A stretch of 46,636 nucleotides of DNA from Desulfococcaceae bacterium HSG8 (GTDB lineage: Bacteria; Desulfobacterota; Desulfobacteria; Desulfobacterales; 4be13), in assembly GCA_030378015.1 (NCBI GenBank), contig JAUCGG010000017.1:1-46636 (forward strand), written 5' to 3'. The number at the start of each line of letters is the position of its first letter. Position 1 is the stretch's first letter. Below the pieces are notes generated by a model, which was not told where the DNA came from, ran no database searches, and saw nothing but the letters and a program-made list of their open reading frames with translations. Positions 2,182-46,269 of the stretch are shown one piece after another. The translations under genes and the position numbers were made by a program.

Positions 2182-2260
2182 ATAGCACAGATTACATATA
2201 AATTCGGGGTTAGTAGTTCCGCCTTCAGGCGGCTGATGCCCGGGATTGTCAACCGGGTGC

Positions 2261-27287: not shown

Positions 27288-27335
27288 ACAAATAAAATAC
27301 CTGAAGATGTAGGGTGGGTGGAGCGAAGCGTAACC
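27288..27335. repeat. Hairpin element gtagggtgggtggagcgaagcgtaacccacc. An inverted copy lies at 28975-29012.
   Basis: The two copies are reverse complements and bracket the 1.7-kb MITE-filled spacer. Confidence 0.6.
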
Positions 27336-27543
27336 CACCTTTTGCTGTTATTATTTATTATTTATTATCTCGACAGTCATAAGTTCTCTGAAGCCGCTGT
27401 TCTGAGTCCCCCTTTTTTAAAGGGGGATTCAGGGGGATTTCAGCAGGTTGGGGGAAATCCCCCCCGGCCCCCTTTAAAAAAGGGGGGAGTTTCCTGGTGA
27501 GCCATTTCAGCTATTTATGAGAACTTACGACTCACGAGTTATT

Positions 27544-28275
27544 ATCAGCAGATCGAAAAATTTCCGGTTAAACAGTGGATTCCGGGTTAAAATTAAAAAA
27601 CATCCGTTTTGGGCGCATTTACAACTTGAGGGAGTCCCGGAGGGACGACTGAAAATAGCCCGGCAATTTATTGCCGGGGGCGAATGTCCCCGTTTTTCAG
27701 TCCCGCAGGACGAATGAAAAGCTTTTTTTCAGCCGTCCCTACGGGACGTGATGATCCGGAATACTCACCCGGCAATGAATTGCCGGGCTATTTTCAGTCG
27801 TCCTCCGGGACTGAAAATCACTCCCCTGACTTGTAAATACGCCCATCCGTTTTTTAATTAATTTTCCCCGGAATGACAGCTTTAAACTATTGTCATTCCG
27901 GGGAAAATCGGAAAACGGATGTTTTCCGATTTTAACGGGCGCATTCCCAAAAAGTAGGAAATTCTCGTTCCCAAGCTCCGTCCGCCTGGAATGCATCCTG
28001 AGAGGCTCTGCCTCGTTTTTTGTTTTAAAACAGACAAGTTAAGCGAAATATCCTGCAAGGCAGAGCCTTGCGGAATGCATTCCCAGGCAGAGCCTGGGAA
28101 CGAGTAAAAAATATCCGTTTTTTAATTTTCCCCGGAATGACAGCTTTAACCTATTGTCATTCCGGGGAAAATCGGAAAACGGATGTTTTCCGATTTTAAC
28201 CCGGAATCCACATTCCGGAAAAGCATCCTGATTTTCCCCGGAATGACAATTCGGGTAAACCACAAAATCCGTTAG
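27544..28275. mobile_element. Nested MITE cluster. A family E element is interrupted by a family D element (27612-27845) and a family F element (27945-28108), followed by more family E hairpins.
   Basis: Family E reads ...aaaaaacatccgtttt | family D | catccgttttttaattaattttccccggaatgaca. The 9-bp atccgtttt is duplicated on both sides of family D. Family F is inserted after ...ccgattttaac. Confidence 0.65.
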
Positions 28276-28294
28276 AACCAGTATTATTTATTAT

Positions 28295-28615
28295 CAGCAG
28301 ATCGAAAAATTTCCGGTAAACCCTTTTAAACAGTGGATTCCGGGTTAAAATGTTAAAAACATCCGTTTTTTTATTTTCCCCGGAATGACAGTTTTAAACT
28401 ATTGTCATTCCGGGGAAAATCGGAAAACGGATGTTTTCCGATTTTAACGGGCGCATTCCCAAAAAGTAGGAAATTCTCGTTCCCAGGCTCCGCCTGGGAA
28501 TGCATCCTGAGAGGCTCTGCCTCGTTTTTTGTTTTAAAACAGATAAGTTAAGCGAAATGTCCTGTAAAACAGAGCCTTGCGGAATGCATTCCCAGGCAGA
28601 GCCTGGGAACGAGTA
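28295..28615. mobile_element. Second family E copy (28295-28445) with a family F element (28445-28615) inserted at the same relative site.
   Basis: ...ggaaaacggatgttttccgattttaac|gggcgcattcccaaaaagtaggaaattctcgttcccagg... is identical to the junction at 27940. Confidence 0.6.
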
Positions 28616-28737
28616 ATATTTTGAATTTTATGGTAATCTGTATGCAGCCTACTTTTGGGGAATGCTCCCATTTTAACCCGGGGTCCACTGTTTGCAGAAG
28701 TTTTCGATCTGCTGATTATCAGTAGGCATCCTTCATT

Positions 28738-28800
28738 TATCAGTTTACACTTCACTGTAGAACAATCTTTCAAATTGTTTTAAACAATTTGAAAAATTGT
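28738..28800. repeat. Near-perfect 60-bp palindrome ctgtagaacaatctttcaaattgttttaaacaatttgaaaaattgttctacag.
   Basis: Read directly. Nested inner palindrome caaattgttttaaacaatttg. AT-rich, unlike the GC-rich REP families. Confidence 0.6.
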
Positions 28801-29056
28801 TCTACAGCCGGAAAAAGTGCAAACTACTTTTCAGCTTTTTATCAGTAGATGGAAATGCCCTTAAACCGCTCCGGGCAGACTGATAAATCCGCCTGAAATG
28901 CCTGGGCATTTGTTAATCCCAAGCGAGCATTTCGGGAGCACTTTCCATCTACTGATTATCTTATTATCAGTTATACGGTGGGTTACGCTTCGCTCCACCC
29001 ACCCTACATCTCCGTTTGGGAGTACACTTCGTGTACGCAAAACCGAAGTTTCGCGT

Positions 29057-29641
29057 TCAGCAGCGTTTCTTAAACTTTCTCCTGATTCCCGCAAGAGCGG
29101 CCAATCCGGAACCCAGCAGCCACAGTGATCCGGGAATGGGAATGACACTGATGTTCCCGCTTTCCGGATTTGCGGAAAGAGAATCTCCTGAGAAGTCGCC
29201 GAGAATCGGATCTTCGGGAAATGACAGCGGGCTGTTTCCCATGCCGATGCCTGTAAAGGAAAGCGTCGCCAGGGCAAAGGAGTCAGACTGGAAGCTTAAA
29301 TCATCAAGCAGGGAAAGCTCCCTGAGGTGTATTGTACCGCCGAGATTGCCGTCGCCCCAGTTCAGCGCATCATAATCCGAGATATCGCCCAGTCCGGTTC
29401 CCAGGGTGTAATCGTTAAAATCCAGGACGCTATTGTCGTAGTTCACATTGAAATCAAATGTGCCCAGGTCATCATTTTCCAAACCTGAGACAACAATATC
29501 CACGTCAGTCATCCCGCCGATCCCAATCACCGAGTCGGACGGATCGAAGGAGAGGTTTGCCGCCCATGCCTGATCACTGACAAACATGGCAATAAACATC
29601 GCAAATAAACATGTTAGAAATTTTTTCCCCAGTTTTTTCAT
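29057..29641 (-). CDS. Small secreted protein (194 aa): signal peptide, cohesin-like beta-sandwich domain, PEP-CTERM-type C-terminal sorting signal (PIP variant).
   Basis: MKKLGKKFLTCLFAMFIAMFVSDQAWA signal. GGMTDVDIVVSGLENDDLGTFDFNVNYDNSVLDFNDYTLG follows the type-I cohesin pattern (G.TV.VPV.LS.V...I...DF.L.YD.NVLE.....G). C-terminus VIPIPGSLWLLGSGLAALAGIRRKFKKRC is a Pro motif + hydrophobic helix + Arg/Lys tail. Confidence 0.6.
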   Translation of the reverse strand: MKKLGKKFLTCLFAMFIAMFVSDQAWAANLSFDPSDSVIGIGGMTDVDIVVSGLENDDLGTFDFNVNYDNSVLDFNDYTLGTGLGDISDYDALNWGDGNLGGTIHLRELSLLDDLSFQSDSFALATLSFTGIGMGNSPLSFPEDPILGDFSGDSLSANPESGNISVIPIPGSLWLLGSGLAALAGIRRKFKKRC

Positions 29642-29719
29642 GATAATACCCTCCTTTCTTTAAAATGTTTGAGTGTAAAGGAACTCCGAATAAGATACCC
29701 GGTTCGGGGAGACGACCCC

Positions 29720-30085
29720 TCCTGCTCGGTTCGGATTGACAAATCCGAACCCCGGCGGGGGATTTGCCAATCCCCCGCGAGCAACAACGGGCAATCCTCC
29801 GCGAGCAGCGCCCATCTTGCTCGGTTCGGATTGACAAATCCGAACCCCGGCGGGGGATTTGCCAATCCCCCGCGAGCAACAACGGGCAATCCTCCGCGAG
29901 CAGCGCCCATCTTGCTCGGCTCGGATTGACAAATCCGAACCCCCGGCGGAGATTTGCCAATCCCCCGCGAGCAACAACGGGCAATCCTCCGCGAGCAGCG
30001 CCCATCTTGCTCGGTTCGGATTGACAAATCCGAACCCCGCGGCGGGGGATTTGTCAATCCCCCGCGAGCAGCAGCGGGCAAAATA
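29720..30085. repeat. Tandem array of 4 copies (period 95 bp) of family G: ctgctcggttcggattgacaaatccgaaccccggcgggggatttgccaatcccccgcgagcaacaacgggcaatcctccgcgagcagcgcccatcttg.
   Basis: Period measured between successive ctcggttcggattgac. Each unit has two hairpins and ttgaca/ttgcca motifs. A solo copy lies at 13033-13103. Confidence 0.75.
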
Positions 30086-30415
30086 AAGCCTTTTCCTGCA
30101 ACGGAAAATCCCCCCGGCCCCCTTTACGAAAGGGGGAGGAATTCTACTATTATCAATTCGTAAATTAAATTCTCCCCCCTTTTTTAAAGGGGGGCCGGGG
30201 GGGATTTCCGCCGTAACAGCCTTTTCCTGCAACGAAAAATCCCCCCGGCCCCCTTTACAAAAAGGGGAGGAATTCTACTATTATCAATTCGTAAATTAAA
30301 TTCTCCCTCCTTTTTTAAAGGGGGCCGAGGGAGATTTCTGCCGTAACAGCCTTTTCCTGCAACGAAAAATCCCCCCGGCCCCCTTTACGAAAGGGGGAGG
30401 AATTCTACTAATTCC
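30085..30415. repeat. Tandem array of about 2.7 copies (period ~125 bp) of a family C variant (cttttcctgcaacgRaaaatccccccggccccctttacRaaaggggg aggaattctactattatcaattcgtaaattaaattctccc..ttttttaaaggggggccgRggg.gatttc.gccgtaacag). The last unit is truncated exactly at the stop codon of the 5059-aa gene.
   Basis: Units start at 30090, 30222 and 30343. The stop TAG of the giant gene (complement of cta 30408-30410) lies within the ctacta of the repeat. Confidence 0.7.
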
Positions 30416-33400
30416 CATCACAGGTACATTCCGGACAGTCGCACAGCAGCACGAGCTTTCTCGCGTCCAGGACTGTGATTGTCCCGTCCCCGTCAATGTC
30501 GCATTCCATGCAGATACCGGCATCCTCATTCAGATGAATCCCGATAATGTCAACATCATCAAGGTCTATGACGCAGTCATCGTTGAGATCACCGGCTCTG
30601 TCATCGGGAACACCGCATCCGCAGTCACCCGTTTCGATTTTATACGGATCATCGGGGCATCCGTCGCAGGCATTTCCCTGGCCGTCGCTGTCCGTGTCAG
30701 TCTGATCCGGGTTCGAAGCACTGGCGCAGTTGTCACAGGCATCTCCCACATCGTCGCTGTCCCTGTCCTCCTGATTGTAATTGGCATCGCCGGAGCAGTT
30801 GTCACAGGCATTTCCCACGCCGTCTTTATCTGCATCTGCCTGGCCCGGGTTGGGAGTGCCGACACAGTTGTCAACTCCGTCACAGACCGTGTCCTGATCT
30901 GCATCAAGACAGTCATCGCAAGCGTCACCCAGCCCGTCGCTGTCCGTGTCAGTCTGATCCGGGTTGAAAGTGCCGGGGCAGTTGTCATCTTCATCACAGA
31001 CATTGTCATTATCCATATCAACGCACGCATCACAGATATCGCCTATGCCGTCGCTGTCCGCGTCTGTCTGATCCGAATTGGAGGTGCTGGCGCAGTTGTC
31101 ACAGGTATCTCCGACTTCGTCCCCGTCCCCGTCTTCCTGGTCCGGGTTGGCATCATCGGGACAGTTGTCACAGGTATCCCCGACTTCGTCCCCGTCCGCG
31201 TCTTCCTGATCCGGGTTTTCAATGTCGGGACAGTTATCGCACGCGTCTCCGAGTTCATCGCCATCCGCATTTTCCTGATCCGGATTTTCAATGTCAGGAC
31301 AATTATCGCAGACATCTCCCAGGGCATCGCCGTCCGTATCAGTCTGATCCGGGTCGGGATCACTGACACAATTATCACACGCGTCGCCGAGACCGTCGTT
31401 GTCAGTGTCCATCTGATTAATGTTTCGGGTGCCAAGGCAATTATCCACGTCATCGCAAACACTGTCCTGATCAGCATCCGCTACTGTACCGCCCCAGTCG
31501 CCGTTGCAGTCCTGGGAACAGGCAACTTTCCCGGTGTTTCCGCCGACACATTCTCTGCAGTTATCAACGGTGGCAGTTCCGCCCCAGTCATTGTTGCAGT
31601 CCTGAGAACAGGCAATTTTCCCGGTATTTCCGCCGACACATTCTCCGCAGTTGTCAACGGTGGCAGTTCCGCCCCAGTCATCGTTGCAGTCCTGAGAACA
31701 GGCAACTTCCCCGGTGTTTCCGCCGACACATTCGCCGCAGTTATCAACGGTGGCAGTACCGCCCCAGTCATCGTTGCAGTCCTGGGAACAGGCAACTTCC
31801 CCGGTGTTTCCGCCGACACATTCTCCGCAGTTATCAACGGTGGCAGTTCCGCCCCAGTCGCCATTGCAGTCCTGAGAACAGGCAACTTCCCCGGTGTTTC
31901 CGCCGACACATTCTCCGCAGTTATCAACGGTGGCAGTTCCGCCCCAGTCGCCATTGCAGTCCTGAGAACAGGCAACTTCCCCGGTGTTTCCGCCGACACA
32001 TTCTCCGCAGTTATCAACGGCGGCAGTTCCGCCCCAGTCGCCATTGCAGTCCTGGGTGCATGTGCTGGTGTTGCCGGTATTGCCGCCGACACATTCGCCA
32101 CATTCGTCAGTATATGCAGTGCCGCCCCAGTCTTCGTTGCAGTCCTGAGAACAGGCAGGCAATCCCTCATCAGCGATGCCGTCGCAGTTGTCATCGGTGC
32201 CGTTGCAGATTTCTGTCGCATCAGGATTCACATCTTCGTCCTCATCGTCACAGTCACAGACATCGCCCCATCCGTCTCCGTCAGTATCGGTCTGATCCGG
32301 GTTGGAATCATCCGGGCAGTTGTCATTGCTGCCGCAGAGACCGTCACCGTCAGCATCGGCCAGAGTGGTCATGGGTTCATCTTCATAGAAAGGACAGTAC
32401 GCCACATTTTCGGAAATGGCATCACCGCTGCCGCATCCCGCTTCTGACGGGCCATCCGCAGCTTCCCAATAATTATACCTGGCGTTAATTGGGGAGGCAT
32501 AATCTCCGTCAACTGTGACGGCAAGCTCGTTGCTGATAAATCTGTTTTCACGGACAAGGTGTTCGGGATACGTCATATCCGTGTCCATGCTGAATTTTAT
32601 GGCCGTGTCATTATCTTCAAACAGATTGCCTTCGATAATGCTTGGCAGATGTGTTCCGCCTCCTGCGCCATAGTATTTCCAGTCAATGGCAGGTTCGTCA
32701 TCCGGGTCAGGCTGAAAACCGTTTGTCGCATTTCTGAAGACATTGTCGTAAATGCGATGATCACCGAAAGTCTGGCCAGCCGCGTCAGGACATCCGTGTC
32801 CGTTATAAATGGCGTCGCTGCACCCGTCAAAAACATTGTTATAAATGTCGTACCCCTGACTGTTGGACATGGTCATACCGCCCAGGGTTTCATCTGTATT
32901 ATTATAGATATGCACCGGGGCATTGCCGGAACCGTCCCGCGGGGCAAACCGGTTATGGCACAGGAACATGGAGGTTGCCCAGTGGCCGGCATCCCCGGAT
33001 GCTCTGTCCTCAACAAAGCGATTGTCGTGGATGCTCAGGCTCAGAGGGCCGCTGCGGGCTTTGTATATCATTACACCCGCGCCCCATTCGGCACCCGGAT
33101 CACTGCGGCCGTTAAAGGTGAAGCCGGAAATCTCGTAATTCATGTTCCCGGTGTACCCGTCCATGTTGCCGACAAGACATTTTCCCTCAGCAGGAGCGAT
33201 CCAGGTCACATCATCCTGTCCCTCTCCGAGGATTGCAAGGTTTTTCCCCGGCGTCAGAGTGACTTGCTCGGTATATGTCCCTGCTGCAACGTGGACAGTG
33301 CCGCCGGAGTTCACCTGATCAACCGCCGCCTGGATGGTCTTCTTGGCGTCAGTCCATGAGGTGCCGCCGTTGCTGTCATCGCCGTTGTCGTCAGCGTAGC

Positions 33401-36400
33401 AGTCATCGGTGCATTGCAGTCTTTCGATCTCCACCAGGTAGTCCTCAACCTCGCCGTCAGGGACAAAACCCGTGGGCTGTAATCCGCCACTCATGCTCAG
33501 GCGGAAGCGGGCGTAGGTGGGTCCTATAACAGCATCGGACGGAACCACGAAAGTGAGATTGTTGACGGGGTTAGGCTGACCGTTCAACAACTGGCTCACA
33601 CCACCCCACAGATGCTCGGCTTGGTGATCAAAAACGCCGTTGCCGTTAAAGTCGATCCAGGCATCCAGCATCCCGCCAGAAGGTCCGCCATCCACGATAA
33701 CTGTGGAACTCGTTCCCGCTGTCAGCACCGGCGGCAGGGTCACGCCGTCCTCGTCGTCGGGCATGCCGGGGGGATTCAGGTCGTCGCCGTCTGCCAGCGG
33801 TGAAGGCTGGCCGTCCGGCTCCGCGTCCACTATCGGTCCCAGGCTGTGTCCCCGGACGATGGCGTGGCGGGCGCCGTTGCCGGCCAGCAGTGTGCCGTAG
33901 CTGTCCGGAGCGTCGCCGTAGTCCAACGGCAGGCGGTTGTGGAAGGTACATTTGACCGTCTCACCGGCTTCGACCTGGAAGTTGGCTCTGAAGTCGGCCA
34001 GACTGACGGTGCTGTTGCCGTCGTCACATACGATGCTGGTCAGTTCCCAGCCTGCCGGCACTGTTTCCTGGGAGGTGTAGCTTCCCGGAAGCAGGTCTGA
34101 CACCACGATCTGCCCGCCGTCCGAGATGGTTCCGGAGGCGTCATCGCCGAAGGTGAAGCTGTCAGGTGCGCCATCGGGGTCGGTCTGCTTTTCAACGATG
34201 ATGGTTCCCCGCTTCTGAGTGTTGGTAAAGACACATCTGACTGTCTCACCCGCTTCAACCTTGAAGGTGGCGGTTTTCGTGTTCACGTCGCCGCTGCTGT
34301 CCCCGGTGGGGTCGTAACACCGGATGGAGGTCAGGTTCCAGCCTGCGGGCACGATTTCTTGCGAGGTGTAGGTTCCCGGCAGCAAGTTGCTGGACACGAG
34401 CGACGCGTCGTCCGTGATGCTTCCGTCAGCGTCGCCGCTGAAGGTGAAGCTGTCAGGTGCGCCATCGGGATCGGTCTGCTTTTCGACGATAATTGTGCCT
34501 CGCTGCTGAATGTTGGTAAAGATGCAGGTTACCGTCTCACCAGCCCCGAGGCCGATTACACTCGGGTCACTGCCGTCGTCGCAGGTGGCGCTGGCCAGGT
34601 TCCAACCGGCCGGGAGGTTGATCTCGTCCACCGAGTAGGTGCCGGGAGTGAGAGGGCCGGAGTTGTTCGTCCCGTCATCAACCAGGGAAAAGTTGGGACC
34701 ATAGTCAGTGCCAAACTCAAAGCTCTCGGCCGAGCCGTCAGGGTCGGTCTGCTTCTCAACGATGATCGTTCCCCGCTTCTGAGTGTTGGTAAACACACAT
34801 CTGACCGTCTCACCAGCGTCGAGTCCGATCGCACCCGGGTCGCTGCCGTCGCTACAGGTGGCGCCGGTCAGGCTCCAACCGACCGGGACGCTCTCGATCA
34901 CCGAGTAGGTGCCCGGAGTGAGAGGGCCGGAGCTGTTCGTCCCGTTATCGCTCAGGGAAAAGCCGGAACCGTAGCTGGGGCTGAAATCAAAGCTCTGATC
35001 CGAGCCGTCAGGGTCGGTCTGCTTTTCAATGATGATCGTGCCGGGGTGGGTATTGCTGAAGGTACAGACCACATCCTCACCCGCACCGACCGCCACCGAC
35101 AAGGTTTCACCGGTCAGACTGCCGCCGGCCCCGGTACAGGTGGCATTGTCCAACTGCCAGCCGCCGGGCAGGCTTTCGATGATCTCATAAGTGCCGGCGG
35201 GCAGGCCATTGAAGGTGACACTTGAGCTGACGCCGTCGCCATCATCCGGGTTGGCGTCATCCAGGGTGAAGCTGGCCATGACCGGCAACGCCTCCACCTT
35301 GCGAATACGATGGTTAGACCTGTCAGAAATTAAGAGGTTGCCGGCGTTATCAAACACGACACCAGTGGGGTTATGCAGGTTGGCACTGGTCGCCGGGCCA
35401 CCGTCGCCGCCAACCCCCCCTGTGTCATTGCCAGCCACCGTGCTGATGTTGCCCGTGGTGGCGTCCACCTTACGAATACGATGGTTCCACTGGTCAGCAA
35501 TGAAGAGGTTGCCGGCGTTATCAAACACGACACCAGTGGGGTAATACAGGCTGGCACTGGTCGCCGGGCCGCCGTCGCCACCAGAGCCACCCGTGCTGAT
35601 GTTGCCCGTGGTGGCGTCCACCTTGCGAATACGATTGTTTTTATAGTCAGCAATGAAGAGGTTGCCGGCGCTATCGAACGTAACACCAATGGGCTCATTC
35701 AGGTTGGCACTGGTCGCCGGGCCACCGTCGCCACCAGAGCCACCCGTACCATTGCCGGCCACCGTGCTGATGTTGCCCGTGGTCGCGTCCACCTTGCGAA
35801 TACGATGGTTATACCAGTCAGCAATGAAGAGGTTGCCGGCGCTATCGAACGCGACACCAATGGGGTAATACAGGCTGGCACTGGTCGCCGGGCCACCGTC
35901 GCCGCCAAAGCCCCTTGTGCCATCGCCGGCCACCGTGCTGATGTTGCCCGTGGTGGCGTCCAGCTTGCGAATACGATGGTTCGACAGGTCAGCAATGAAG
36001 AGGTTGCCGGCGCTATCGAACGCGACACCATAGGGACCATTCAGGCTGGCGTTAGTCGCCGGGCCACCGTCGCCGCCAAAGCCGCTCGTACCATTGCCGG
36101 CCGCCGTGCTGATGTTGCCCGTGATGGCGTCCACCTTGCGAATACGATGGTTCCACTGGTCAGCAATGAAGAGGTTGCCGGCGCTATCGAACGCGACACC
36201 ACCGGGGTAATTCAGGCTGGCGTTAGTCGCCGGGCCACCGTCGCCGCCAAAGCCCCCTGTGCCATCGCCGGCCACAGTGCTGATGTTGCCGCCAAGCACA
36301 CTCACTGGAATGTTGCTGGTAAAGTCAAAGTCGGCACCGTCCTGAGGGGTGGCTTGTTTGATGATAGTGAGAGTTCCCCGTTCCTGGCTGTTGGTGAAGA

Positions 36401-39400
36401 CGCAGGTGACTGTCTCGCCCGGATCAAGGCCGATGGCGCCCGGGTCGCTGCCGTCGCTACAGGCGACGCCGGTCAGGTTCCAACCGGCCGGGAGGTTGAT
36501 CTCGTTCACCGAGTAGGTGCCGGGAGTGAGAAGAGGGCCGGAGTTGTTCGTCCCGTCATCAGCCAGGGAAAAGTTGGGACCATAGTCAGTGCTGAACTCA
36601 AAGCTCTCGGTCGAGCCGTCAGGGTCGGTCTGCTTTTCGACGATGATGATGCCTGGCTCCGGTTCTTCAATCTCCACCATGTAGTCCTCGACCTCGCCGT
36701 CTTCGGCCGGACCGCCGCACGGAGTCAGTGGCCCAAGGGTATTAATTCGGAAGCGGGCGAATGTTTGCCCGGGCACTATATCCGGGGGCACGCTGACCAC
36801 TGGCGCATTCACACCGGTCGTATAGACTCCGGGAGAATAGTTTCCGGAAACAACATGCTCCCGGCCGCCCATATCACCCCAGACGCCACTGCCGTTAAAG
36901 TCAATCCAGCCGTCAACATAAGCCGGACCATTATTAACCTCAAATGTAATGGCAGCTTGTTGCCCTTGATACAATACAGGTATTGACACCCCGTCTTCAT
37001 CATCAGGATCAGTACCGGCGTTATCATCACCCATTGCGGCTGGGTCTGGCTGGCCGTCAGCTTCCGCATCGGGATCATCTGAAGGATCACCGATACCCAG
37101 AAAGGGAGCGCCGGGGACGATGATATGGCTTGCCCCATTACTGGCAGCCAGAGTGCAGTATGGCGTATCCGGCGCATCGCTATAGTCCAGGCCATGCGGG
37201 CTCGGATCGCAGGCATCGCCCAGGCTGTCGCCGTCCGTGTCTGTCTGACCCATATTGGGAACGTCCGGGCAGTTGTCCTGACCATCGGGTACGCCGTCCT
37301 CATCGGTGTCTGTAAAACAGTCCATTTCATATATGTACGCAGAGCCGGAACCGAGAGCTTTCTCATCATCGCTGGTCCCTACGAGGACATAATTGCCGGA
37401 CATGAAGACAGAATAGCCAAAGTAATCATAGTTATTACCCTGTCCGTCATAGGCGGTGAACTTTGCCTGCTGTACCCAGGAGGTTCCGTCATAATGAAAA
37501 ACATAAGCAGCGCCAAAATCGGCTCCGTTATCACCATCCCCGATGGCCCCGACGACGGCATAATCGCCGGAAACGGAAACAGATTGGCCAAATCTGTCAT
37601 CCTGCGCCCCGTCGTCAGCAGTGAGCTTTGCCTGCTGTGTCCAGGAGGTTCCGTCATAATGAAAAATGTATGCGGACCCGGAATCGCTCCCCCTGTCATC
37701 ATCATAGATAGCCCCGACGACGGCATGATCACCGGACACGGAGACAGATCTGCCAAAGCGATCACCCTGCGCCCCGTCGGCGGCCGTGAGCTTTGCCTGC
37801 TGCACCCAGGAGGTTCCGTCATAATGAAAAACATAAGCAGAGCCGGAATCGCTCCCCTTGTCATCATCATAGCGGGCCCCCACGAGGGCATAATCACCGG
37901 ACACGAAGACAGATATGCCAAAGTGATCACCCTGCGCCCCGTCGTCTGCGGTGAGCTTTGCCTGTTGCATCCAGGAGGTTCCGTCATAATGAAAAATGTA
38001 TGCAGACCCGGAGTCAACCCCTTTGTCATCATCATAAAAAGCCCCCACGAGGGCATAATCGTCGGACACGGAGACAGGGACGCCAAAATGATCACCCTGC
38101 GCCCCGTCGTGGGCGGTGAGTTTTGCCTGCTGTGTCCAGAAGGTTCCGTCATAATGAAAGACATAAGCAGAATCCTGGTAAGCCCCCACGACGGCATAAT
38201 CGCCGGACACGGAGACTGACTGTCCAAAGCTGTCACCCTGGGTCCTGTCGTTTGCGGTGAGCTTTGCCTCCTGTGTCCAGGAGGTTCCGTCATAATGAAA
38301 AATGTATGCGGCACCGGTATAGTCATCGGGGGAACCGGAATCGCTCCCGTTGTAATCATCCCCGGGAGACCCAACGACGGCATAACCGCCGGATACGGAG
38401 ACAGAATGGCCAAAATTATCATAGGCCGCCCCGTCGTCTGCGGTGATCTTGAATTCGGTCGCATCGGCAAAACTGCAGTTGTCCGGGTCAAGCGGGAAGG
38501 CGTCATGCTCATCGTTCACGCCGTCATTGTCGTCGTCCGGGTCGGCATTGTCGCCGATGCCGTCCTCATCATTGTCAGACTGTTCGGTCGCATCAAGCGG
38601 GAATGCGTCATCCGCATCGTTCACGCCGTCATTGTCGTCGTCCTCATCGCAGACATCACCTAGATTGTCACCGTCCGTGTCTTCCTGATCCGCATTGGAG
38701 ATGTCCGGGCAATTGTCCTGAGCATCAGGTACGCCGTCCTCATCGCTGTCTGCAAAGCAGCCAATTCCGTATATATACGCGGAGCCGGAACCGCCATCGT
38801 CCCCGTAAGCCCCCGCGATGGCATAATTGCCGGACATGGACACAGCGTAGCCAAAATAATCATCCGCCGCCCCATCGGGAGCAGTGAGTTTGCCCTGCTC
38901 TGTCCAGGATTCCCCGTTATAATGAAAAACGTACGCAGAGCCGGAATCGCTTTCACTGTCATCATTCCAGCGAGTCCCGACGAAGGCAGAACCGCCGGAC
39001 ACGGACACAGCGTGGCCAAAGCGATCACCCGGCGCCCCGTCGGAAGCGGTGAGTTTGGCCTGCTCGATCCAGGATTCTCCGTCATAATGAAAAACATAGG
39101 CCGAGCCTGAGGAACTGCCCCTGTCATCATCTCTGTAAGCTCCTACGATGACAGAATCGTCGGACACGGATACAGATACCCCGAAAGAATCGTACGCCGC
39201 CCCGTCAGAAGCGGTGAGTTTGGCCTGTTTGGTCCAGGCTTCCCCGTCATAATGAAAAACGTAGGCTGAACCTGAACCGCTGCCCCTGTCATCATCTCTG
39301 TCAGCCCCGACGACGGCAAAATCGTCGGACATGAACACAGAGATGCCGAAGGAATCATCCGCCGCCCCGTCGGAAGCGGTGAGTTTGGCCTGCTCTGTCC

Positions 39401-42400
39401 AGGATTCCCCGTCATAATGAAAAACGTAGGCCGAGCCTGAAGTGCTGCCCCTGTCATCATCTCCCACAGCCCCGACGAAGGCAAAATCGCCGGACACGGA
39501 CACAGAGATGCCGAAATAATCATCCGCCGCCCCGTCGGAAGCGTTGAGTTTGGCCTGCTCTGTCCAGGATTCCCCGTCATAATGGAAAACGTAGGCCGAG
39601 CCTGAAGAACTGCCCTTGTCATCATCTGCGTAAGCCCCGACGATGGCAGAACCGCCGGACATGGACACAGCGTAGCCGAACCGATCACCCGCTGCCCCGT
39701 CGGAAGCGTTGAGTTTGGCCTGCTCGGTCCAGGATTCCCCGTCATAATGGAAAACGTAGGCCGAACCTGAATTGCTGCCCCTGTCATCATCTCCCTCAGC
39801 CCCCACGATGGCAAAATCGCCGGACACGGAGACAGAATTGCCAAAATTATCATAGGCAGCCCCGTCGTCTGCGGTGAGCTTGGATTCGATTGCATGGGCA
39901 AAATCGCAGTTGTCCGGGTCGAGCGGGAATGCGTCATCCGCATCATTCACGCCGTCATTGTCGTCGTCCTCATCGCAGGCATCGCCCATGTTGTCGTTGT
40001 CCGTGTCTGTCTGATCCGCATTGGGTATGTCCGGGCAGTTGTCCGTGTCGCCGCATACGCCGTCACCGTCCGCATCATTGCAGGGCACAATGCAGTCGTT
40101 GTAAATCCCCATAACCTCTGATTCGGAGAGTTCACGGTTCCAAAATCCCACATCGTCAATAAGGCCTTCATAATAACTGTTGTAATCCCAGTTATGAACT
40201 CTGCCGATTCCTGTTTCAGGCCCGGTGGCCCAGCCGACAAAACTGCCGGTTTCGACATACTGGTCAGCAAGCACTCCGTCCTGATAAAGTCTGAGGGTTC
40301 TGTCAGCATATCCCTGATATCCCGCGATATGATGCCATTCATTATCGGCCACGTTATTTCCGGTCAGGGTGACAAAGCCTCCGACATTGGTTTTGTAATC
40401 CTGATAATAAATCTCGCCGTTGCTGTTGATTCCGAATACCCAGGTATGATAGCGTCCGCCAGTCGGTCCCATAACCAACTGGTTCACCTTTGAAGTCCTG
40501 ATCCAGAAGGAGAAGAAATTTTTATGCCCGGCTTCAAAGTCTGTCCGGATGTAGCTGTTCCCGTCAAAGCTGTATGCGCTGTCAGTATCTCCGCATCTGC
40601 CGGATGTCAGTGAGGCTCCGCCGACCGCCGTGCCGTGATGACCGTTGCCGGATTCGTCGTCCGCGTCGCCGTCAAAGGGATAGTATGCTACGAGACCGTC
40701 ATCCGGGCAGTTGTCACACACATCTCCGACACCATCACCGTCCGTGTCAGACTGATCGGAATTGGCCAGATCGGGACAGTTATCTCCGTTGTCGCCGATG
40801 CCGTCCTGATCGTTGTCAGCCTGCTCGGCCGCATCAAGGGGGAATGCGTCATCCGCATCGTTCACGCCGTCATTGTCGTCGTCCAGATCGCCGTTGTCGC
40901 CGATGCCGTCCTGGTCGTTGTCAGACTGCTCGGCCGCATCAAGGGGGAATGCGTCATCCGCATCGTTCACGCCGTCATTGTCGTCGTCCTCATCGCAGGC
41001 GTCGCCCAGGTTGTCGCCGTCTGTGTCTTCCTGACCTGCATTGGAAACATCCGGGCAGTTATCCTGACGGTCAAAAATACCATCATCATCCGTGTCCGCA
41101 CAGACCGTTTCGTAAGCCCCTATATCAAACCCGTCACATCGGGGTCTGGGATTTCCCTCGATATCTTCATCGGGCGATCCTGCTGATGTGCCTGTGTCAA
41201 TACAGGGAGAGAGGGAAGTCAGATGATAATTGCCATTTGCCGCATCCAGGAACAGCGGATCAGCGTTGATGTTGCCTTCACCAGCATATCCGCCCTGTAT
41301 GTCGGAATAGCTCACAACAGGGGAACTGCTCTCGGATACGATCTGATTCTGCATATTTCCCCAAATGATACAGTTGGTAACGATTGCGGAGGATTTGAAC
41401 CAGTAAATTCCGCCGGTGCCGTAGTTGGCCGAATTCCCGCTGACAGTGCTGTTGGTTATGGTCGGAGAAGAATTATACCAATAAATCCCGCCGCCGTCAT
41501 AGCCTGCCGAATTTCCGCTGATAATGCAATTGATAAGTTTCGGGGAGGAGTAACCGAAAGAAAGCATTCCGCCGCCGCTGTGGCCTACCGAATTCCCGCT
41601 AATGATGGAACTGGTAATGGTCGGAGAAGAGCGATAGTCACAATAAATTCCACCTCCCCCACCACCTATATCATGTTCACTAATGGTGCAATTCGTAATG
41701 ATCGGCGAGGAGTTGGTGCAATAAATCCCACCGCCAGTGCAGAATTCGTCCGAATTCTCGCTAATGGTGCAGTTGGTGATGATCGGAGAGGCGTAAGCAC
41801 AATAAATTCCTCCGCCACGGCCCCAAACCTCATCGTCGCCGCCGTTTACCGAATTCCTGCCAATAGTGCAGTTGATAATGCTCGGAGAGGAGTAACTACA
41901 GTAAATCCCTCCGCCATGATCTGCCGAACCATTGGTAATCGTAAAACCGGACACTACAGAATCACCGCCTTCTCCGCTATGAAAATTAAATCCCCGCCCA
42001 TTATTCTCACAATCTATAATGCAGTTTCCAGGGCCGTTTTCTGATCTGAGGGTAATGGCTTTTCCCTTGAAATCCAAATCTTTGTTTCCCGTCCCTGTGT
42101 AAGTGCCGTCGGCAACCAGGACAGTGTCACCATCTGAGGCTGCGTCAATAGCGGCCTGAATTGTGGGGTATTCACCGGGAAAACGGAGCGAATATCTGAA
42201 TTCATAAGCTCCCATGTCAGCCATGTTATTCTGAGGTCTCGGAAGACCGTCAAGGTCTTGACCCGGCGCTCCTGCTGATGTGCCTGCATCAATACAGGGT
42301 GAGACGGATGTGAGATGATAATCGCCGTTGGCAGCATCCACAAACATCGGGTCGGTATTGATGTTGCCTTCACCTGTGTATCCGCCCTGTATATTGGAGT

Positions 42401-45400
42401 ATGTGACAACAGGATTGCTTTGGTCTCTGAAAATTTCGCTTGGTGCGTCATTCCAGAAAACAGAGTTGGCAATGCTCGGATTAGACGCGATATAACAGGA
42501 AATTCCACTGCCATACGTTGCTGAATTATTGGTGACAGTGCAGTTGGTAATAGATGGAGAAGAGTGATTGCAATGAATCCCGCCGCCATGCGATGATGCC
42601 TGATTGCCATAAATGAGACAGTTGGTAACGGACGGAGCAGAGTAATAGCACCAGATTCCGCCACCGTAGGTTGTCCTGTTGTCATAAATAACGCTGTTGC
42701 TAATGACCGGAGAGGATGCGTTGCAATGAATCCCGCCTCCATGAGATGATGCTGAATTACCAGAAACGAGGCAACCGGTAATGGTCGGAGAAGATTGGTA
42801 GCACCAAATCCCGCCACCGTAAGTCGCCTGATTATTACGGACAACACAGCCGCTAACAGTCGGAGAGGAATACTTGTAGAGATAAACTCCACCGCCTTTT
42901 ATTGTTGCTGAATTACCGCTGACAGTGCTATTGGTGATAATCGGGTAGCAGTACCAGTTGCAGTAAATTCCGCCCCCGAATTCAGTTGCCTCATTATCGC
43001 TAATAGTACAGTCGCTAATAATCGGAGAGGATTGATTAAGATGAATTCCTCCGCCGTAAGTCGCTGAACTTTCTCTGATGACACAGTTGCTAATGGTCGG
43101 GGAAGAATTGTTGAAAAAAATCCCGCCGCCGTGCTTGCTTACTGAACCATTGATAATGCTGAATCCGGAAAGCACCGAGTCTTCACCTTCCCCGCTATGA
43201 AAATGAAATCCCCGCCCGTCATTCTCACAGTCTATAATGCAGTTTTCAGGCCCGTTTTCCGATCTGACGGTGATGGCTTTTCCATTGAAGTCCAGATTCT
43301 TATTTCCTTCACCTGTGTAAGTACCATCGCTGACCAGAACCGTGTCACCGTCTGAGGCTGCGTCAATAGCGGCCTGGATGGTGGAATAATCGCCGGGAAC
43401 AGCCAAGGTCTCAGAACAGCCGTTTTCGTCAGGCTCGGTCTTACTCGGATCACCGGGGCAACCGTCAACGCAGTCCGGGGTTCCGTCATTGTCCGTGTCC
43501 GTATCCTGGTCGTAGGGGCAGGAGAGTTTGGTTATGTAGGCATCTCCCCAGTTACCACCGTAAGTACCCTGGAACGGATTCGCGAGGGGAAAATCTCCGA
43601 GAGACTGACCCACAACATAAGCACTGCCTTCGCTATCCACAGCAATGCCGAAGCTGACATCAGTGGCTGATCCGCCCAGATAGGTGCTGTAAATCAGCCC
43701 GTCTCCCACTGCGTTCATCTTGGTCACGAAGGTATCTCCGGGGCCGCCGCCGTAGGTGTTATCAAATGCATTTTTTACTGGAAAATCTGAGGAATGCGTG
43801 TTGCTGGTGACATAAGCATGACCGCCACTGTCCACGGCGATATCCATGGCATGATCCATTTCCAGGGAGCTTCCGCCCAGGTAAGTGCTGTAAATCAGAC
43901 GATCACCGGCCGGATTCAGTTTGCTTACGAAAGCATCATTGGAACCGCCGTAAGTGTCCTGGAATGCATTTTTCAATGGAAAATCAGGAGACCGGGTCGC
44001 TCCGATAATATAGGCGTTACCGGTGTCATCCGCGGCAATATCATAACCGTCATCCCGATTGTTCCCGCCCAGGTATGTGCTGTAAATCAGCTCATTGCCG
44101 GCCGCATTCAGTTTTGTTATGAAGGCATCATAATCACCGCCGTAAGTGCTTTGGAATGCATTCACGAGTGGAAAATCAGCCGAGGACTGAGTTGTCCCGG
44201 CAATGTATGCGTTGCCCTCGGTATCCACAACTATGCCCCTCCCCTCATCATACTTGTCTCCACCCAGGTAGGTGCTGTAAACGAGTTCCTTTCCTGCCGC
44301 ATTCAGTTTGGTCACAAAAGCATCTTGCTTACCTCCGCCGTAAGTATCCTGAAACGGGTTTACCAACGGGAAATCACCGGAGCGAGTGTATCCGCTAATG
44401 TGTGCGTTGCCGTCATTATCCACAGCAATGCCGCTGGCAGATTCCCAGTCGGCATCTCCCCCCAGATATGTGCTGTAAATCAGTTCATCTCCGTCCGCGT
44501 TCAGTTTGACCACAAAGGCATCATGAGTGCCTCCGAGTCCGATATCCAATGAACCCGGGGTCACAGGGAAGTCCGGAGATTTGGTGTATCCTGCGATATA
44601 TGCGCTGCCCTCACTGTCCACAGTGATGCTCAGACCACGATCTTTGTTCCCCCCGGCCAGATATGTGCTGTAAATCAGCCTGTCTCCGGCCGCATTCAAC
44701 TTGCTCACAAAGGCATCTTCAGACCCGCCGCCGAAACTGTTCTGACTGGGAAAGTCGGAGGATTGGGTCATGCCGGTGATGTATGCATTGCCATCGCTGT
44801 CCACGGCAATGTCAAAACCCCAGTCTGTGGCACTCCCGCCCAGATAGGTGCTGTAAACCAGCGTGACCGGATCAATCACCAGCGGGTAAGCCGGATCATA
44901 ATCATCAACCTCAAAGCCGATCTCCCCGTTATCGGCAAGCGCGAAGCAGGCTCTGACCGGAACATCCTGGCCTCCGATGACCTGCCACGCAACCGGGGCC
45001 TGTTCCCGCAGGATACGGCCGGCCGCTTCGATCAGCAGATCGCCGGTGTCGGGATCAATGCTGACATCCTCAGCCCCGTCATAGCACCAGCGAATCAGGG
45101 AGGGATCTCCGCCCGGAGCGACGGTGAATGTGCTTTTGAGATAGCCTTCCTGCCCGTCATAGCGCAGGTCAGTATCCGGCCAGAGATCAGTGTAAAGGAT
45201 ACTGTGATGGATGGGAACACCGGTATGCCATCGGGCCGGGTCATCGCCGGTGAAATAATTGAAAGTTCCCGGCAGGGTTTCACCCGCGGTGATCTGTGCA
45301 TCCGGATCATTGCCGTCAAAGTGAATCCGAAGCACTCCCGGGGGATCGGAGCCTGTTCCGGGCAGTGAAATAATCACCTCCCCGGGAGTGAAAAACATTG

Positions 45401-45587: not shown

Positions 45588-45654
45588 TTTCTGTCCTCCT
45601 TACATTACATCTGATGGTTAAAAGGATTCTTGCAGTGCGAAAAAGGATTTTTAC

Positions 45655-45706
45655 AATAAAAAAAGCCGGTTTGCCTTTTTCTCAGGCAACCCGGCTTTCT
45701 CAATGA
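45655..45706 (-). terminator. Hairpin aaagccggtttgcc-tttttctca-ggcaacccggcttt preceded on the plus strand by aaaaaaa. Candidate rho-independent terminator for minus-strand transcription coming from the right.
   Basis: 13-bp stem with one mismatch. The plus-strand A-run gives a U-tract on the minus strand. If real, it insulates the giant gene's promoter region (45588-45650). Confidence 0.45.
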
Positions 45707-46269
45707 GACCCGTGGCTTTCCGTCCCTGCCTCACGGCAGGTTTGGCTTTATCAGGGAAAATATCTTCAATCCCCCGAAGGATGCACTATCCTCCGGGGAT
45801 TGCAGCGGAATTTTCAAATTTATCCTTTTCATAATAAATTCCCTCCCGAAAAATAATATACCCGGTGTATGCGGCTCTCCGGGTCTTTAAAAACCGCGGG
45901 TTATTGGGACACGGATAAACACGGATTTCATTACAAAATGATCCGTGTTCATCCGTGTCCTGAAAAATCGCGGGTTCTTTTTTGAGAATTCCTAAAATAA
46001 AATACAACTTCCGAACACTGAGTTGGAATTTCTGGATGCAGGGCTGAAAAGTAAGCGCACAGGGCGATTGCGAGAACCGATGCTTTTGTATTATACCGGT
46101 TGCGATTCGATGCGTATAAGAAATGGTATTCCGTGTGAATCCGAGCCGTTTGTTTATCCGAATCTTTCTGGCCGAAGATGACTATAATATAACTGAATCA
46201 CAATTCTATTGTGTATCATATGGGTTTGAATGTCAAGTTTTTTTATTTTTCACTTTTAAAACATAAGAA

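What the first reader, a model, noticed from the sequence alone, without database searches (positions are those of the whole stretch)
29057..29641. Cohesin-like protein with a PIP-variant PEP-CTERM tail
The C-terminus VIPIPGSLWLLGSGLAALAGIRRKFKKRC has the tripartite architecture of exosortase/archaeosortase sorting signals, but with PIP instead of PEP. The N-terminal domain fits the cohesin beta-sandwich pattern. The gene is bracketed by dense satellite arrays on both sides (MITE nest 27288-29012 upstream of its 3' end; the G and C arrays 29720-30415 on the other side), which may influence its expression.
Basis: partly seen in the sequence, partly recalled or inferred. Interest (0 to 1): 0.6.

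Follow-up and report, generated by a model that had tools for sequence, protein, structure and literature searches.

The report
Surface-anchored cohesin that docks a giant adhesin
This small gene encodes a secreted cohesin module with an exosortase-type C-terminal anchor. It is conserved next to a giant adhesin ending in a matching dockerin, often behind a c-di-GMP riboswitch, so it looks like a Gram-negative version of the cohesin-dockerin surface tether known from cellulosomes.

Summary

The 'PIP' tail is not a new class. It passes NCBIfam VPLPA-CTERM (TIGR03370), and NCBI already names the protein that way. In this protein family P[VIL]P tails (85 of 139) outnumber PEP (42).

The upstream 5059-aa adhesin ends in a dockerin, shown by a family profile and by a fold match to solved dockerins. 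That dockerin subtype lies next to the cohesin gene in 8 of 11 loci examined, across at least two phyla. A c-di-GMP-I-class riboswitch heads the gene pair in three genomes, whichever gene comes first.

Best reading: a c-di-GMP-controlled, exosortase-sorted single-cohesin anchor that tethers a dockerin-tailed giant adhesin to the cell surface. Binding, exosortase processing and the presence of an exosortase in this genome were not testable here.

I rate it a new variant of a known kind, with moderate to good interest.

The parts
29057..29641 (-). Gene for the 194-aa single-cohesin anchor protein (stop codon included)
   Evidence: ORF list and sequence. Identical to an NCBI protein from Desulfococcaceae bacterium HSG8.
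29649..29657 (-). Ribosome-binding site AAAGGAGGG, 7 nt upstream of the ATG
   Evidence: Read directly from the sequence.
29561..29641 (-). Sec-type signal peptide, residues 1-27 (MKKLGKKF / hydrophobic core / AWA, then ANLSF)
   Evidence: Lys-rich n-region, hydrophobic h-region and an A-x-A site that is conserved in the family consensus. AF2 gives helix 2-21 and the first beta strand at residue 28. The cleavage site is inferred, not predicted with a dedicated tool.
29144..29560 (-). Type-I-like cohesin module, residues 28-166
29060..29143 (-). VPLPA-CTERM (PEP-CTERM-class) sorting tail, residues 167-194: VIPIPG + SLWLLGSGLAALAGI + RRKFKKRC
   Evidence: TIGR03370 scores 27.0 bits against a cutoff of 25.35. 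PF07589 scores 15.6, below 20.7. AF2 helix 171-193.
29716..30410 (.). Two tandem repeat arrays (95 nt x 3.8 at 29716-30081; 131 nt x 2.5 at 30087-30410). They fill most of the 766-nt spacer between the giant gene and the cohesin gene.
   Evidence: TRF and the repeat finder families D1, D3 and D5. The same spacer is only 130 nt in D. magnum.
30408..45587 (-). Gene for a 5059-aa secreted multi-domain adhesin, the proposed cargo. Domains: DUF7948, SBBP and FG-GAP beta-propeller repeats, Laminin_G_3, TSP_3, NHL, five SpaA-like prealbumin folds and GEVED.
   Evidence: ORF; Pfam.
30411..30620 (-). C-terminal 70 aa of the giant protein: a dockerin module with two Ca-loop/helix repeats (DLNDDCVIDLDD ... 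DIDGDGTITVLD) and a Cys-rich end (CxxC ... CxCPxCxC)
   Evidence: The tail-family profile hits dockerins 2y3n_B (E 2.8e-7) and 4fl4_A (3.8e-6) first. Pfam Dockerin_1 matches 5 of 5 tails, best 9e-10; the window tail itself scores only 15.7 bits. AF2 pLDDT is 85.9. Foldseek top 22 are all dockerins, best rmsd 1.3 A over 50 columns. The subtype HMM scores 92.8 bits with filters off, though this tail was a seed member.
45681..45755 (-). c-di-GMP-I-class riboswitch aptamer (Rfam RF03167, GGC variant) in the 5' leader, 93 nt upstream of the giant gene's ATG
   Evidence: 72.7 bits against a gathering score of 59, full-length match. Riboswitches of the same clan head the homologous gene pair in L001 and L002.
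27518..28742 (.). Nest of dispersed direct and inverted repeats beyond the 3' end of the cohesin gene (context, not part of the module)
   Evidence: the repeat finder D2, D4 and I1-I5. Two arms match Rfam Acido-Lenti-1.

Best explanation
The 194-aa protein is the anchor half of a two-gene surface-display module.

Proposed steps:
1. It is exported by Sec and its signal peptide is removed after AWA (residue 27).
2. Its VPLPA-CTERM tail holds it transiently in the inner membrane, where a cognate exosortase recognises the VPIPG motif.
3. The exosortase processes the protein and passes it on for attachment at the cell surface or exopolysaccharide layer.
4. There its single type-I-like cohesin module binds, in a Ca-dependent way, the dockerin at the C-terminus of the 5059-aa multi-domain adhesin encoded just upstream. 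This tethers the adhesin to the cell.
5. Production of the pair is switched by a c-di-GMP-I-class riboswitch in the leader of the unit, which links display of the adhesin to the sessile/aggregating state.

Shown here: the domain architecture, both folds, the conserved gene adjacency and the riboswitch.
Inferred: signal-peptide cleavage, exosortase processing, final location, physical cohesin-dockerin binding, co-transcription across the 766-nt repeat-filled spacer, and the ligand and polarity of the riboswitch.

For: Sorting tail: TIGR03370 is above its curated cutoff. Of 17 homologues, 10 match TIGR02595 PEP-CTERM and 4 match TIGR03370, so the family is consistently exosortase-signal-tailed.

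Partner dockerin: profile-to-PDB search, Pfam Dockerin_1 in 5 of 5 tails, AF2 plus Foldseek with the top 22 all dockerins.

Conserved pairing: an HMM of this dockerin subtype hits exactly 8 of 1,071 ORFs in 197 kb. There is one hit per locus in 8 of 11 cohesin-bearing loci, always the adjacent or next-but-one gene. This includes Desulfonema magnum (cohesin 65% identical) and a Chitinispirillaceae MAG (40% identical). The gene order differs between loci, yet the pair stays together.

Regulation: a c-di-GMP-I-clan riboswitch sits upstream of the first gene of the pair in the window, in D. magnum and in L002. In L002 the cohesin is the first gene.

Cargo: Pfam domains are typical of giant adhesins.

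Precedent: single-cohesin anchoring proteins are among the structural matches, namely OlpA 3ul4, OlpC 4dh2 and ScaE 2zf9.
Against: No binding data exist, and no complex model could be made.

The window's own sequences fall below the Pfam gathering scores for Cohesin (22.9 vs 24.1) and Dockerin_1 (15.7 vs 22.9). Both assignments rest on family profiles and predicted folds.

No exosortase is encoded in the window, and the rest of the genome could not be searched.

In the window the two genes are separated by 766 nt of tandem repeats, so co-transcription is uncertain. The promoter/terminator scan is uninformative.

Three short contigs (L010-L012) show no dockerin neighbour. No riboswitch was detected in L003, L004 or L006.

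The riboswitch is the GGC variant. I could not confirm its ligand from the held literature.

How exosortase substrates are finally attached is not established for any system (my own knowledge).
Confidence: 0.62

Rival explanations
1. The cohesin-like beta-sandwich is an exosortase-sorted matrix or carbohydrate-binding protein, like the floc-forming PEP-CTERM protein PepA. On this view it binds exopolysaccharide or self-assembles rather than binding a dockerin. Its adjacency to the giant protein would reflect only shared c-di-GMP/biofilm regulation.
For: UniRef labels the D. magnum orthologue 'Carbohydrate-binding domain-containing protein'. There is a sub-threshold partial match to NCBIfam floc_PepA in 14 of 17 family members (23.1 bits against a cutoff of 80 for the window protein). 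PEP-CTERM proteins are generally associated with EPS loci (PMC1569441), and L003 has Wzz/GNVR genes nearby.
Against: All top structural matches are true cohesins. None are CBMs. The neighbour specifically conserves a dockerin module while the rest of its architecture differs completely between loci (478 aa to 5059 aa). That is expected if the dockerin is what matters to the cohesin gene. The floc_PepA score is far below its cutoff.
Confidence: 0.15
2. The tail is simply a C-terminal inner-membrane anchor and is not processed by an exosortase. The cohesin faces the periplasm and holds or chaperones the dockerin end of the giant protein during or before its secretion. That would make it a retention or secretion-docking device rather than a surface anchor.
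For: The hydrophobic helix plus basic cluster gives an N-out, C-in inner-membrane topology (PMC1569441; AF2 helix 171-193). No exosortase was found in the window. The multi-cohesin relatives end in a plain TM segment plus basic region with no P-x-P motif. c-di-GMP-controlled periplasmic retention of giant adhesins has a precedent in the LapA/LapG/LapD system (my own knowledge).
Against: The P-x-P motif at the membrane interface is invariant in the family: P168 is invariant and P170 is conserved in at least 90%. The tail passes a curated exosortase-signal model. The tail type appears to follow the genome: VPIP/VPVP throughout L002 and L003, VPEP in L005. That is expected if a genome-specific processing enzyme reads it.
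Confidence: 0.13
3. The cohesin's true partner is a different dockerin-like tail, for example those of the 1545-aa metalloprotease or the 983-aa protein in the same window, or it binds many dockerin proteins genome-wide. On this view the 5059-aa neighbour is not a specific partner.
For: Two other large secreted proteins in the window end in dockerin/EF-hand-like tails. One family member (P0062) fuses this cohesin to that second kind of tail. Cohesins in cellulosomes typically accept many dockerins (my own knowledge).
Against: Only the Cys-rich 'DIDGDGTITVLDARKLV' subtype is syntenic with the cohesin gene across loci. The other two window tails do not match that subtype HMM even at E<1 with filters off, and they score no better than 13.3 bits on Pfam Dockerin_1.
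Confidence: 0.08

Closest known systems
ScaE of Ruminococcus flavefaciens (single cohesin with an LPXTG sortase signal that anchors the cellulosome to the cell wall; PDB 2zf9)
OlpA / OlpC single-cohesin anchoring proteins of Clostridium (Acetivibrio) thermocellum (PDB 3ul4, 4dh2)
   Different: They are anchored by SLH domains to a Gram-positive cell wall, whereas this protein has an exosortase-type tail. Their cargos are glycoside hydrolases.
PEP-CTERM / exosortase (EpsH, XrtA) protein-sorting system (Haft 2006, PMC1569441) and its VPLPA-CTERM variant (NCBIfam TIGR03370)
   Same: An N-terminal signal peptide plus a C-terminal motif/TM/basic tail at the extreme C-terminus. The tail passes the curated TIGR03370 cutoff, and homologues match TIGR02595.
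   Different: The central Glu of PEP is replaced by Ile. PEP-CTERM proteins usually lack recognisable domains (PMC1569441), whereas this one carries a defined protein-protein interaction module with an identifiable partner.
Non-cellulosomal cohesin/dockerin pairs, e.g. Clostridium perfringens NagJ-NagH (2ozn), Archaeoglobus fulgidus cohesin (2xdh), and the cohesin/dockerin 'complexes' noted in syntrophic sulfate reducers and ANME (PMC10553843, PMC5244752)
   Same: Cohesin and dockerin modules in organisms that do not degrade cellulose, encoded near each other and proposed as adhesion devices. 2xdh and the NagJ cohesins are among the structural matches.
   Different: Those reports are domain censuses and do not assign an anchoring mechanism. 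The held literature mentions neither an exosortase tail nor riboswitch control. The dockerin subtype here has a conserved Cys cluster.
c-di-GMP-controlled giant adhesin display, LapA/LapG/LapD of Pseudomonas (my own knowledge)
   Same: The surface retention of a giant multi-repeat adhesin is coupled to c-di-GMP.
   Different: The mechanism is entirely different. There, a periplasmic protease and an inside-out receptor act at the protein level. Here, a riboswitch acts at the RNA level and a cohesin-dockerin tether is proposed.

Membership tests
PEP-CTERM-class sorting signal (VPLPA-CTERM variant, TIGR03370) | Curated HMM score above the trusted cutoff | tested here: met
   TIGR03370 scores 27.0 bits against a cutoff of 25.35, residues 167-189. 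NCBI names the identical protein accordingly.
PEP-CTERM (canonical, TIGR02595 / PF07589) | Near-invariant Pro-Glu-Pro motif and an HMM score above cutoff | tested here: not met
   The motif is P-I-P. PF07589 scores 15.6 bits, below 20.7, and TIGR02595 is not among the window protein's hits. Ten of 17 homologues do match TIGR02595.
PEP-CTERM-class sorting signal | Motif followed by a hydrophobic TM helix of about 14 or more residues and a basic cluster, at the extreme C-terminus | tested here: met
   SLWLLGSGLAALAGI followed by RRKFKKRC-stop. AF2 helix 171-193. Feature definition from PMC1569441.
PEP-CTERM-class sorting signal | N-terminal signal peptide | tested here: met
   MKKLGKKF, a hydrophobic core, then AWA|AN. 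The AWA is conserved in the family consensus. 142 of 152 representatives have an N-terminal hydrophobic region. No dedicated predictor was available.
PEP-CTERM-class sorting signal | Several tailed proteins per genome | tested here: inconclusive
   Only one is present in the 46.6-kb window. Related loci carry two to four P-[EIV]-P tailed ORFs within 10-20 kb (L002, L003, L005).
PEP-CTERM-class sorting signal | Cognate exosortase (EpsH/Xrt family) in the same genome | not testable with these tools
   None is among the window ORFs or among the Pfam-annotated neighbours in the related loci.
Cohesin (PF00963) | Pfam HMM at or above the gathering score | tested here: not met
   22.9 bits against 24.1, a partial match over residues 46-84. 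Homologues P0006, P0009 and P0011-P0013 carry precomputed PF00963 hits.
Cohesin | Nine-stranded flattened beta-sandwich (jelly-roll) fold superposable on solved cohesins | tested here: met
Cohesin | Binds a dockerin | not testable with these tools
   Only indirect evidence: a specific dockerin subtype is encoded next to the gene in 8 of 11 loci.
Dockerin (PF00404), partner tail of the 5059-aa protein | Pfam HMM at or above the gathering score | tested here: not met
   The window tail scores 15.7 bits against 22.9. Tails 49-74% identical to it reach 9e-10, and the L003 neighbour has a confident precomputed hit.
Dockerin, partner tail | Duplicated Ca-binding loop plus helix (F-hand) and a fold superposable on solved dockerins | tested here: met
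   Two loops, DLNDDCVIDLDD and DIDGDGTITVLD, each followed by a helix. Foldseek top 22 are all dockerins, with 2y3n_B at rmsd 1.3 A, TM 0.73 and probability 1.0. The profile search puts dockerins ahead of calmodulins.
c-di-GMP-I riboswitch clan (CL00126) | Covariance-model score above the Rfam gathering score, in a 5' leader | tested here: met
   RF03167 scores 72.7 bits against 59, full length, 93 nt upstream of the ATG. Ligand binding was not tested.

The most novel reading that the evidence does not exclude
A widespread, so far undescribed 'Gram-negative adhesosome'. In this reading a family of about 195-aa single-cohesin proteins (hundreds of 50%-identity clusters in sediment metagenomes) is sorted by exosortases via PEP/PVP/PIP-CTERM tails. 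Each protein specifically tethers a neighbouring giant adhesin through a Cys-stapled dockerin subtype. The pair is switched on or off by a c-di-GMP-class riboswitch. This would give non-cellulosomal cohesin-dockerin pairs a concrete function, and would give exosortase substrates a defined protein-protein role.
Probability: 0.45. Interest if true: 0.72.

Novelty: new variant of a known kind. Interest (0 to 1): 0.6.

Why it matters
The function of cohesin-dockerin pairs outside cellulosomes has been an open question since they were found in all three domains of life (stated in PMC5244752). Separately, most exosortase (PEP-CTERM) substrates have no recognisable domain or known role (PMC1569441).

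This locus connects the two problems. It offers a defined cohesin on an exosortase tail and a defined dockerin partner on a giant adhesin. It also supplies a conserved regulatory RNA that ties the module to c-di-GMP signalling.

The hypothesis is directly testable with two small recombinant domains. One host of the orthologous module, Desulfonema magnum, has a complete genome and, to my knowledge, is cultured.

It may also be relevant to aggregate and filament formation in Desulfococcaceae, and to the cohesin/dockerin genes reported as highly expressed in syntrophic sulfate reducers (PMC10553843).

A methodological point follows as well. HMMER's default bias filter hides the dockerin in the 5059-aa protein, so such partners are probably under-annotated.

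Tried and rejected
- Whole-protein Pfam scans of the giant neighbours found no dockerin. Isolated tails gave only sub-threshold hits. Family profiles and fold prediction were needed.
- The search for related loci with alignment A1 failed because no stretch was conserved enough. No species census was therefore possible.
I repeated it with A3, built from a homology search.
- A cohesin-dockerin complex prediction was not attempted. Chimeric sequences are not admissible, and no coordinates are returned.
- Peer et al. 2009 (PMC3035643) and Haft et al. 2012 (PMC3256604) are not held. What they say about anchored non-cellulosomal cohesins or VPLPA-CTERM could not be checked.
- No exosortase search of the HSG8 or D. 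magnum genomes was possible with these tools.
- The promoter/terminator scan of the spacer gave counts no higher than shuffles.
- A lipoprotein reading of Cys12 was rejected. FLTC is a poor lipobox, and the Cys is not conserved in the alignment.
- The idea that PIP marks a new sorting class was rejected on the NCBIfam hit and the family-wide tail tally.
- The literature on the c-di-GMP-I-GGC variant was too thin to assign its ligand.

Full report
**1. The observation**

It runs from 29641 to 29057 on the minus strand and encodes 194 aa. It starts with ATG, preceded by AAAGGAGGG with a 7-nt spacer. The quoted C-terminus is present verbatim.

The identical protein is in NCBI as 'VPLPA-CTERM sorting domain-containing protein [Desulfococcaceae bacterium HSG8]', and its longest contig is 46,636 bases, the length of this window. 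The closest homologue is in Desulfonema magnum (65% identity).

- a 95-nt tandem array at 29716-30081 and a 131-nt array at 30087-30410, upstream of the gene;
- a nest of direct and inverted repeats at about 27.5-28.7 kb, beyond its 3' end.

**2. The protein's three parts**

(a) Residues 1-27 look like a Sec signal peptide: a Lys-rich start, a hydrophobic core, and then A-W-A before the mature end. The AWA is in the family consensus. AF2 shows helix 2-21 and the first strand at residue 28. No dedicated signal-peptide predictor was available, so cleavage is inferred.

(b) Residues 28-166 are a cohesin.
- Pfam alone is borderline (PF00963 22.9 bits against a gathering score of 24.1, partial match).
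- A profile of 17 family members finds cohesins as its seven best PDB matches.
- The AF2 model is confident (pLDDT 88.1, core mostly above 90).
- Foldseek's top 50 are all cohesins, best E 2.5e-11.

(c) Residues 167-194 are a tripartite sorting tail: VIPIPG, then a hydrophobic helix, then RRKFKKRC.
- The tail passes the curated NCBIfam model TIGR03370 VPLPA-CTERM (27.0 bits against 25.35).
- It fails the canonical PEP-CTERM models (PF07589 15.6 bits against 20.7).

**3. The 'PIP variant' is ordinary**

In the 17-sequence alignment the central residue of P-x-P varies (E, I, V, D), while P168 is invariant and P170 is nearly so. Ten of the 17 members match TIGR02595 and four match TIGR03370.

An exhaustive profile search of 1.84 billion representatives finds 13,076 relatives at E<=1e-3, 4,329 at E<=1e-10 and 527 at E<=1e-30. 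Nearly all of the top 150 are proteins of about 190-210 aa that match the full profile, tail included.

Among 152 single-module-size representatives, 139 have a recognisable tail: PVP 66, PEP 42, PIP 17, PLP 2 and 12 others. Hydrophobic P-x-P is therefore the majority state.

In the few loci with several tailed ORFs, the tail type is uniform within a locus: VPIP/VPVP in L002 and L003, VPEP in L005. That fits a genome-specific sorting enzyme reading the motif. This last step is inference from a small sample.

**4.

The 5059-aa ORF upstream on the same strand (45587-30408) is a giant secreted multi-domain protein. Its domains are DUF7948, SBBP, many FG-GAP repeats, Laminin_G_3, TSP_3, NHL, five SpaA-like domains and GEVED.

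It ends in ...GDLNDDCVIDLDDVDIIGIHLNEDAGICMECDIDGDGTITVLDARKLVLLCDCPECTCDGN.

In D. magnum the cohesin orthologue lies 130 nt downstream of a 1769-aa gene whose last 70 or so residues are clearly homologous to that tail. The same tail ends the large neighbour of the cohesin gene in L002, L003 and L004. In L003 the neighbour has a confident precomputed Dockerin_1 hit.

Evidence that the tail is a dockerin:
- An alignment of five tails (A2, 49-74% identical to the window's) used as a profile finds two solved dockerins first (2y3n_B at 2.8e-7, 4fl4_A at 3.8e-6, both repeats aligned), with calmodulin EF-hands behind.
- All five tails hit Pfam Dockerin_1, best 9e-10. The window's own tail is the weakest at 15.7 bits.
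- An AF2 model of the window tail (pLDDT 85.9, two loop-helix units) matches only dockerins in its top 22 Foldseek hits. The best is rmsd 1.3 A over 50 columns at 34% identity, though E-values are weak (0.02) because the domain is tiny. EF-hand proteins fall to TM of about 0.25.

**5. How conserved is the pairing?**

I built an HMM of this dockerin subtype and searched all 1,071 ORFs of at least 60 aa in the 14 sources held (197 kb).

Exactly eight ORFs hit (E 1e-18 to 1e-30). There is one per locus in the window, L001-L006 and L013. Each is the adjacent or next-but-one gene to the cohesin gene.

- In L005 and L013 the dockerin is internal rather than terminal.
- In the Chitinispirillaceae MAG (L006) the cohesin is only 40% identical. 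It still carries a VPEAS+TM+RKK tail, and it follows a 584-aa protein ending in the dockerin without the Cys cluster.
- Three loci (L010-L012) show none. They are contigs of 4.5 kb or less, and two of them have truncated neighbours.
- The neighbours share nothing else: sizes range from 478 to 5059 aa and the domain sets differ. The dockerin is the conserved element.
- The window's other two dockerin-like tails (the 1545-aa metalloprotease and the 983-aa protein) do not match this subtype.
- The window's giant ORF was found only with HMMER filters off (vs 77), and it was a seed member of the HMM. Its score therefore shows only that the default filters hide it. It is not independent evidence.

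**6. Regulation**

An Rfam scan finds a full-length c-di-GMP-I-clan aptamer (RF03167, 72.7 bits against 59) at 45681-45755 (-), 93 nt upstream of the giant gene's ATG.

The same clan appears in two other genomes:
- 189 nt upstream of the dockerin gene in D. magnum (RF01051, 48.3 bits against 35);
- 145 nt upstream of the cohesin gene in L002 (RF03167, 73.8 bits), where the order is cohesin first and dockerin protein second.

A riboswitch that heads the pair whichever gene comes first argues that the two genes form one regulated unit.

No riboswitch was detected in L003, L004 or L006. L005 has only a sub-threshold hit, in front of a different PEP-CTERM gene.

In the window, the 766-nt spacer between the two genes is filled by the tandem arrays, so co-transcription here is uncertain. 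The consensus promoter/terminator scan is uninformative.

**7. Mechanism proposed**

1. Sec export and signal-peptide removal.
2. Transient inner-membrane anchoring by the tail.
3. Recognition and processing of VPIPG by a cognate exosortase, followed by surface or EPS attachment.
4. Capture of the giant adhesin's C-terminal dockerin by the cohesin.
5. c-di-GMP-class riboswitch control of expression.

Shown here: the architecture, both folds, the synteny and the riboswitch. Everything else is inferred, by analogy with cellulosomal anchoring cohesins and with the PEP-CTERM/EpsH model (PMC1569441).

**8. Comparison with known systems**

The closest functional analogue is ScaE of R. flavefaciens (single cohesin plus an LPXTG sortase signal). 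OlpA and OlpC of C. thermocellum (single cohesin plus SLH) are also close. All three are among the structural matches.

Differences here:
- an exosortase-class tail in Gram-negative hosts;
- a non-cellulolytic giant adhesin as cargo;
- a Cys-rich dockerin subtype;
- riboswitch control.

Cohesin/dockerin genes have been noted as putative, highly expressed adhesins in syntrophic sulfate reducers and ANME (PMC10553843; PMC5244752). Those papers make no link between cohesin/dockerin proteins and an exosortase-type anchor.

Full-text searches found no paper combining cohesin, dockerin and PEP-CTERM. None combined a c-di-GMP riboswitch with dockerin. One paper mentions dockerin and exosortase, but in unrelated sections. 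The library is incomplete, and key reviews were not held.

**9. Verdict**

- The cohesin interpretation is confirmed.
- The 'PIP variant' is an already curated and already annotated signal class.
- The interesting part is the conserved triad of riboswitch, dockerin-tailed adhesin and exosortase-tailed cohesin. I rate it a new variant of a known kind, with interest 0.6.
- The main gaps are the unverified exosortase partner and the lack of any binding evidence.

Noticed in passing
window 45681-45755 (-): Full-length c-di-GMP-I-GGC riboswitch aptamer (RF03167, 72.7 bits) in the leader of the 5059-aa gene. Homologous positions in D. magnum (L001 4293-4371) and L002 (9780-9855) carry riboswitches of the same clan. 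It became part of the main model, but the ligand of the GGC variant was not established.
   Followed up: yes
window 27633-27678 (-), 27768-27812 (+), 5231-5276 (-): Three above-threshold matches to the Rfam 'Acido-Lenti-1' RNA motif (51.7, 40.9 and 42.4 bits against 37). The first two coincide with the arms of inverted repeat I3 in the repeat nest downstream of the cohesin gene. This suggests that here the motif is part of a dispersed repeat or MITE-like element rather than an sRNA gene.
   Followed up: partly
window 19452-24089 (+) and 24308-27259 (-): Two more large secreted proteins end in a different dockerin/EF-hand-like tail (…DVNGDEKIGQEEAIYVLQ; …DISGDGKIGFEDLISILR). The 1545-aa protein is an M12 reprolysin-like metalloprotease with InlB B-repeats, Lcl_C and BACON domains. 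The 983-aa protein has a long Thr-rich linker and no Pfam or NCBIfam hit. Both tails are sub-threshold for Pfam Dockerin_1, and neither matches the syntenic subtype HMM. Their binding partner is unknown.
   Followed up: partly
P0062 (222 aa, metagenomic family representative): A member of the same cohesin family lacks the sorting tail and instead ends in the second kind of dockerin-like tail (…DVNGDDRIGLEEAIFAIQVLSG). That is an adaptor-like cohesin-plus-dockerin architecture, and it hints at multi-tier assemblies.
   Followed up: no
P0031, P0063, P0071, P0082, P0093, P0094, P0104, P0164 (786-1837 aa): Multi-cohesin relatives with 4-8 copies of this cohesin type. They end in a plain TM segment plus a basic region with no P-x-P motif, so they look like scaffoldins in unknown organisms.
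   Followed up: no
window 30411-30620 (-) and alignments A2/A3: The syntenic dockerin subtype carries conserved cysteines (CxxC between the two Ca loops; CxCPxCxC or C…C at the end; C60 and C65 are invariant in A3). This suggests disulfide stapling or a metal site, which is not a feature of the solved dockerins it matches.
   Followed up: partly
window 30408-45599 (-), methodological: HMMER's default filters drop the dockerin hit in the 5059-aa protein (absent, 92.8 bits with --max). Pfam also finds it only when the 70-aa tail is scanned alone. Dockerins on giant repetitive proteins are probably under-annotated.
   Followed up: yes
L007 3687-3776 (Methanosarcinales archaeon MAG, 4.2-kb contig): A 264-aa ORF ends in VPIPGTVWLLGSGLVGLVGIRRKFKKQ, nearly the same tail as the bacterial proteins (67% identical to the window tail). 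Either the contig is mis-binned or an archaeon uses this bacterial-type signal.
   Followed up: no
window 16302-17093, 17438-18277, 18789-19364 (+): Three tandem paralogues of DUF2887 (E 7e-26, 1e-29, 6e-5), the third apparently truncated.
   Followed up: no
window 418-2262 (-): A 614-aa ORF appears to fuse IspH (4-hydroxy-3-methylbut-2-enyl diphosphate reductase, residues 28-316) to a UbiA-type prenyltransferase-like C-terminal half (residues about 331-607).
   Followed up: no
L005 2879-3051 (+): A sub-threshold c-di-GMP-I match (32.7 bits against 35, E 0.014) upstream of a different PEP-CTERM protein gene (3343-3894). It hints that c-di-GMP riboswitch control of exosortase substrates may be more general.
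   Followed up: no
L002 10891-14124 and 14276-14800: The dockerin-tailed neighbour in this MAG is split into a 1077-aa ORF and a 174-aa ORF. Both share the same repeated 'EPGVCGCGV.DTDSDKDGTLDC' units, so this is probably a frameshift or assembly break in one gene.
   Followed up: no
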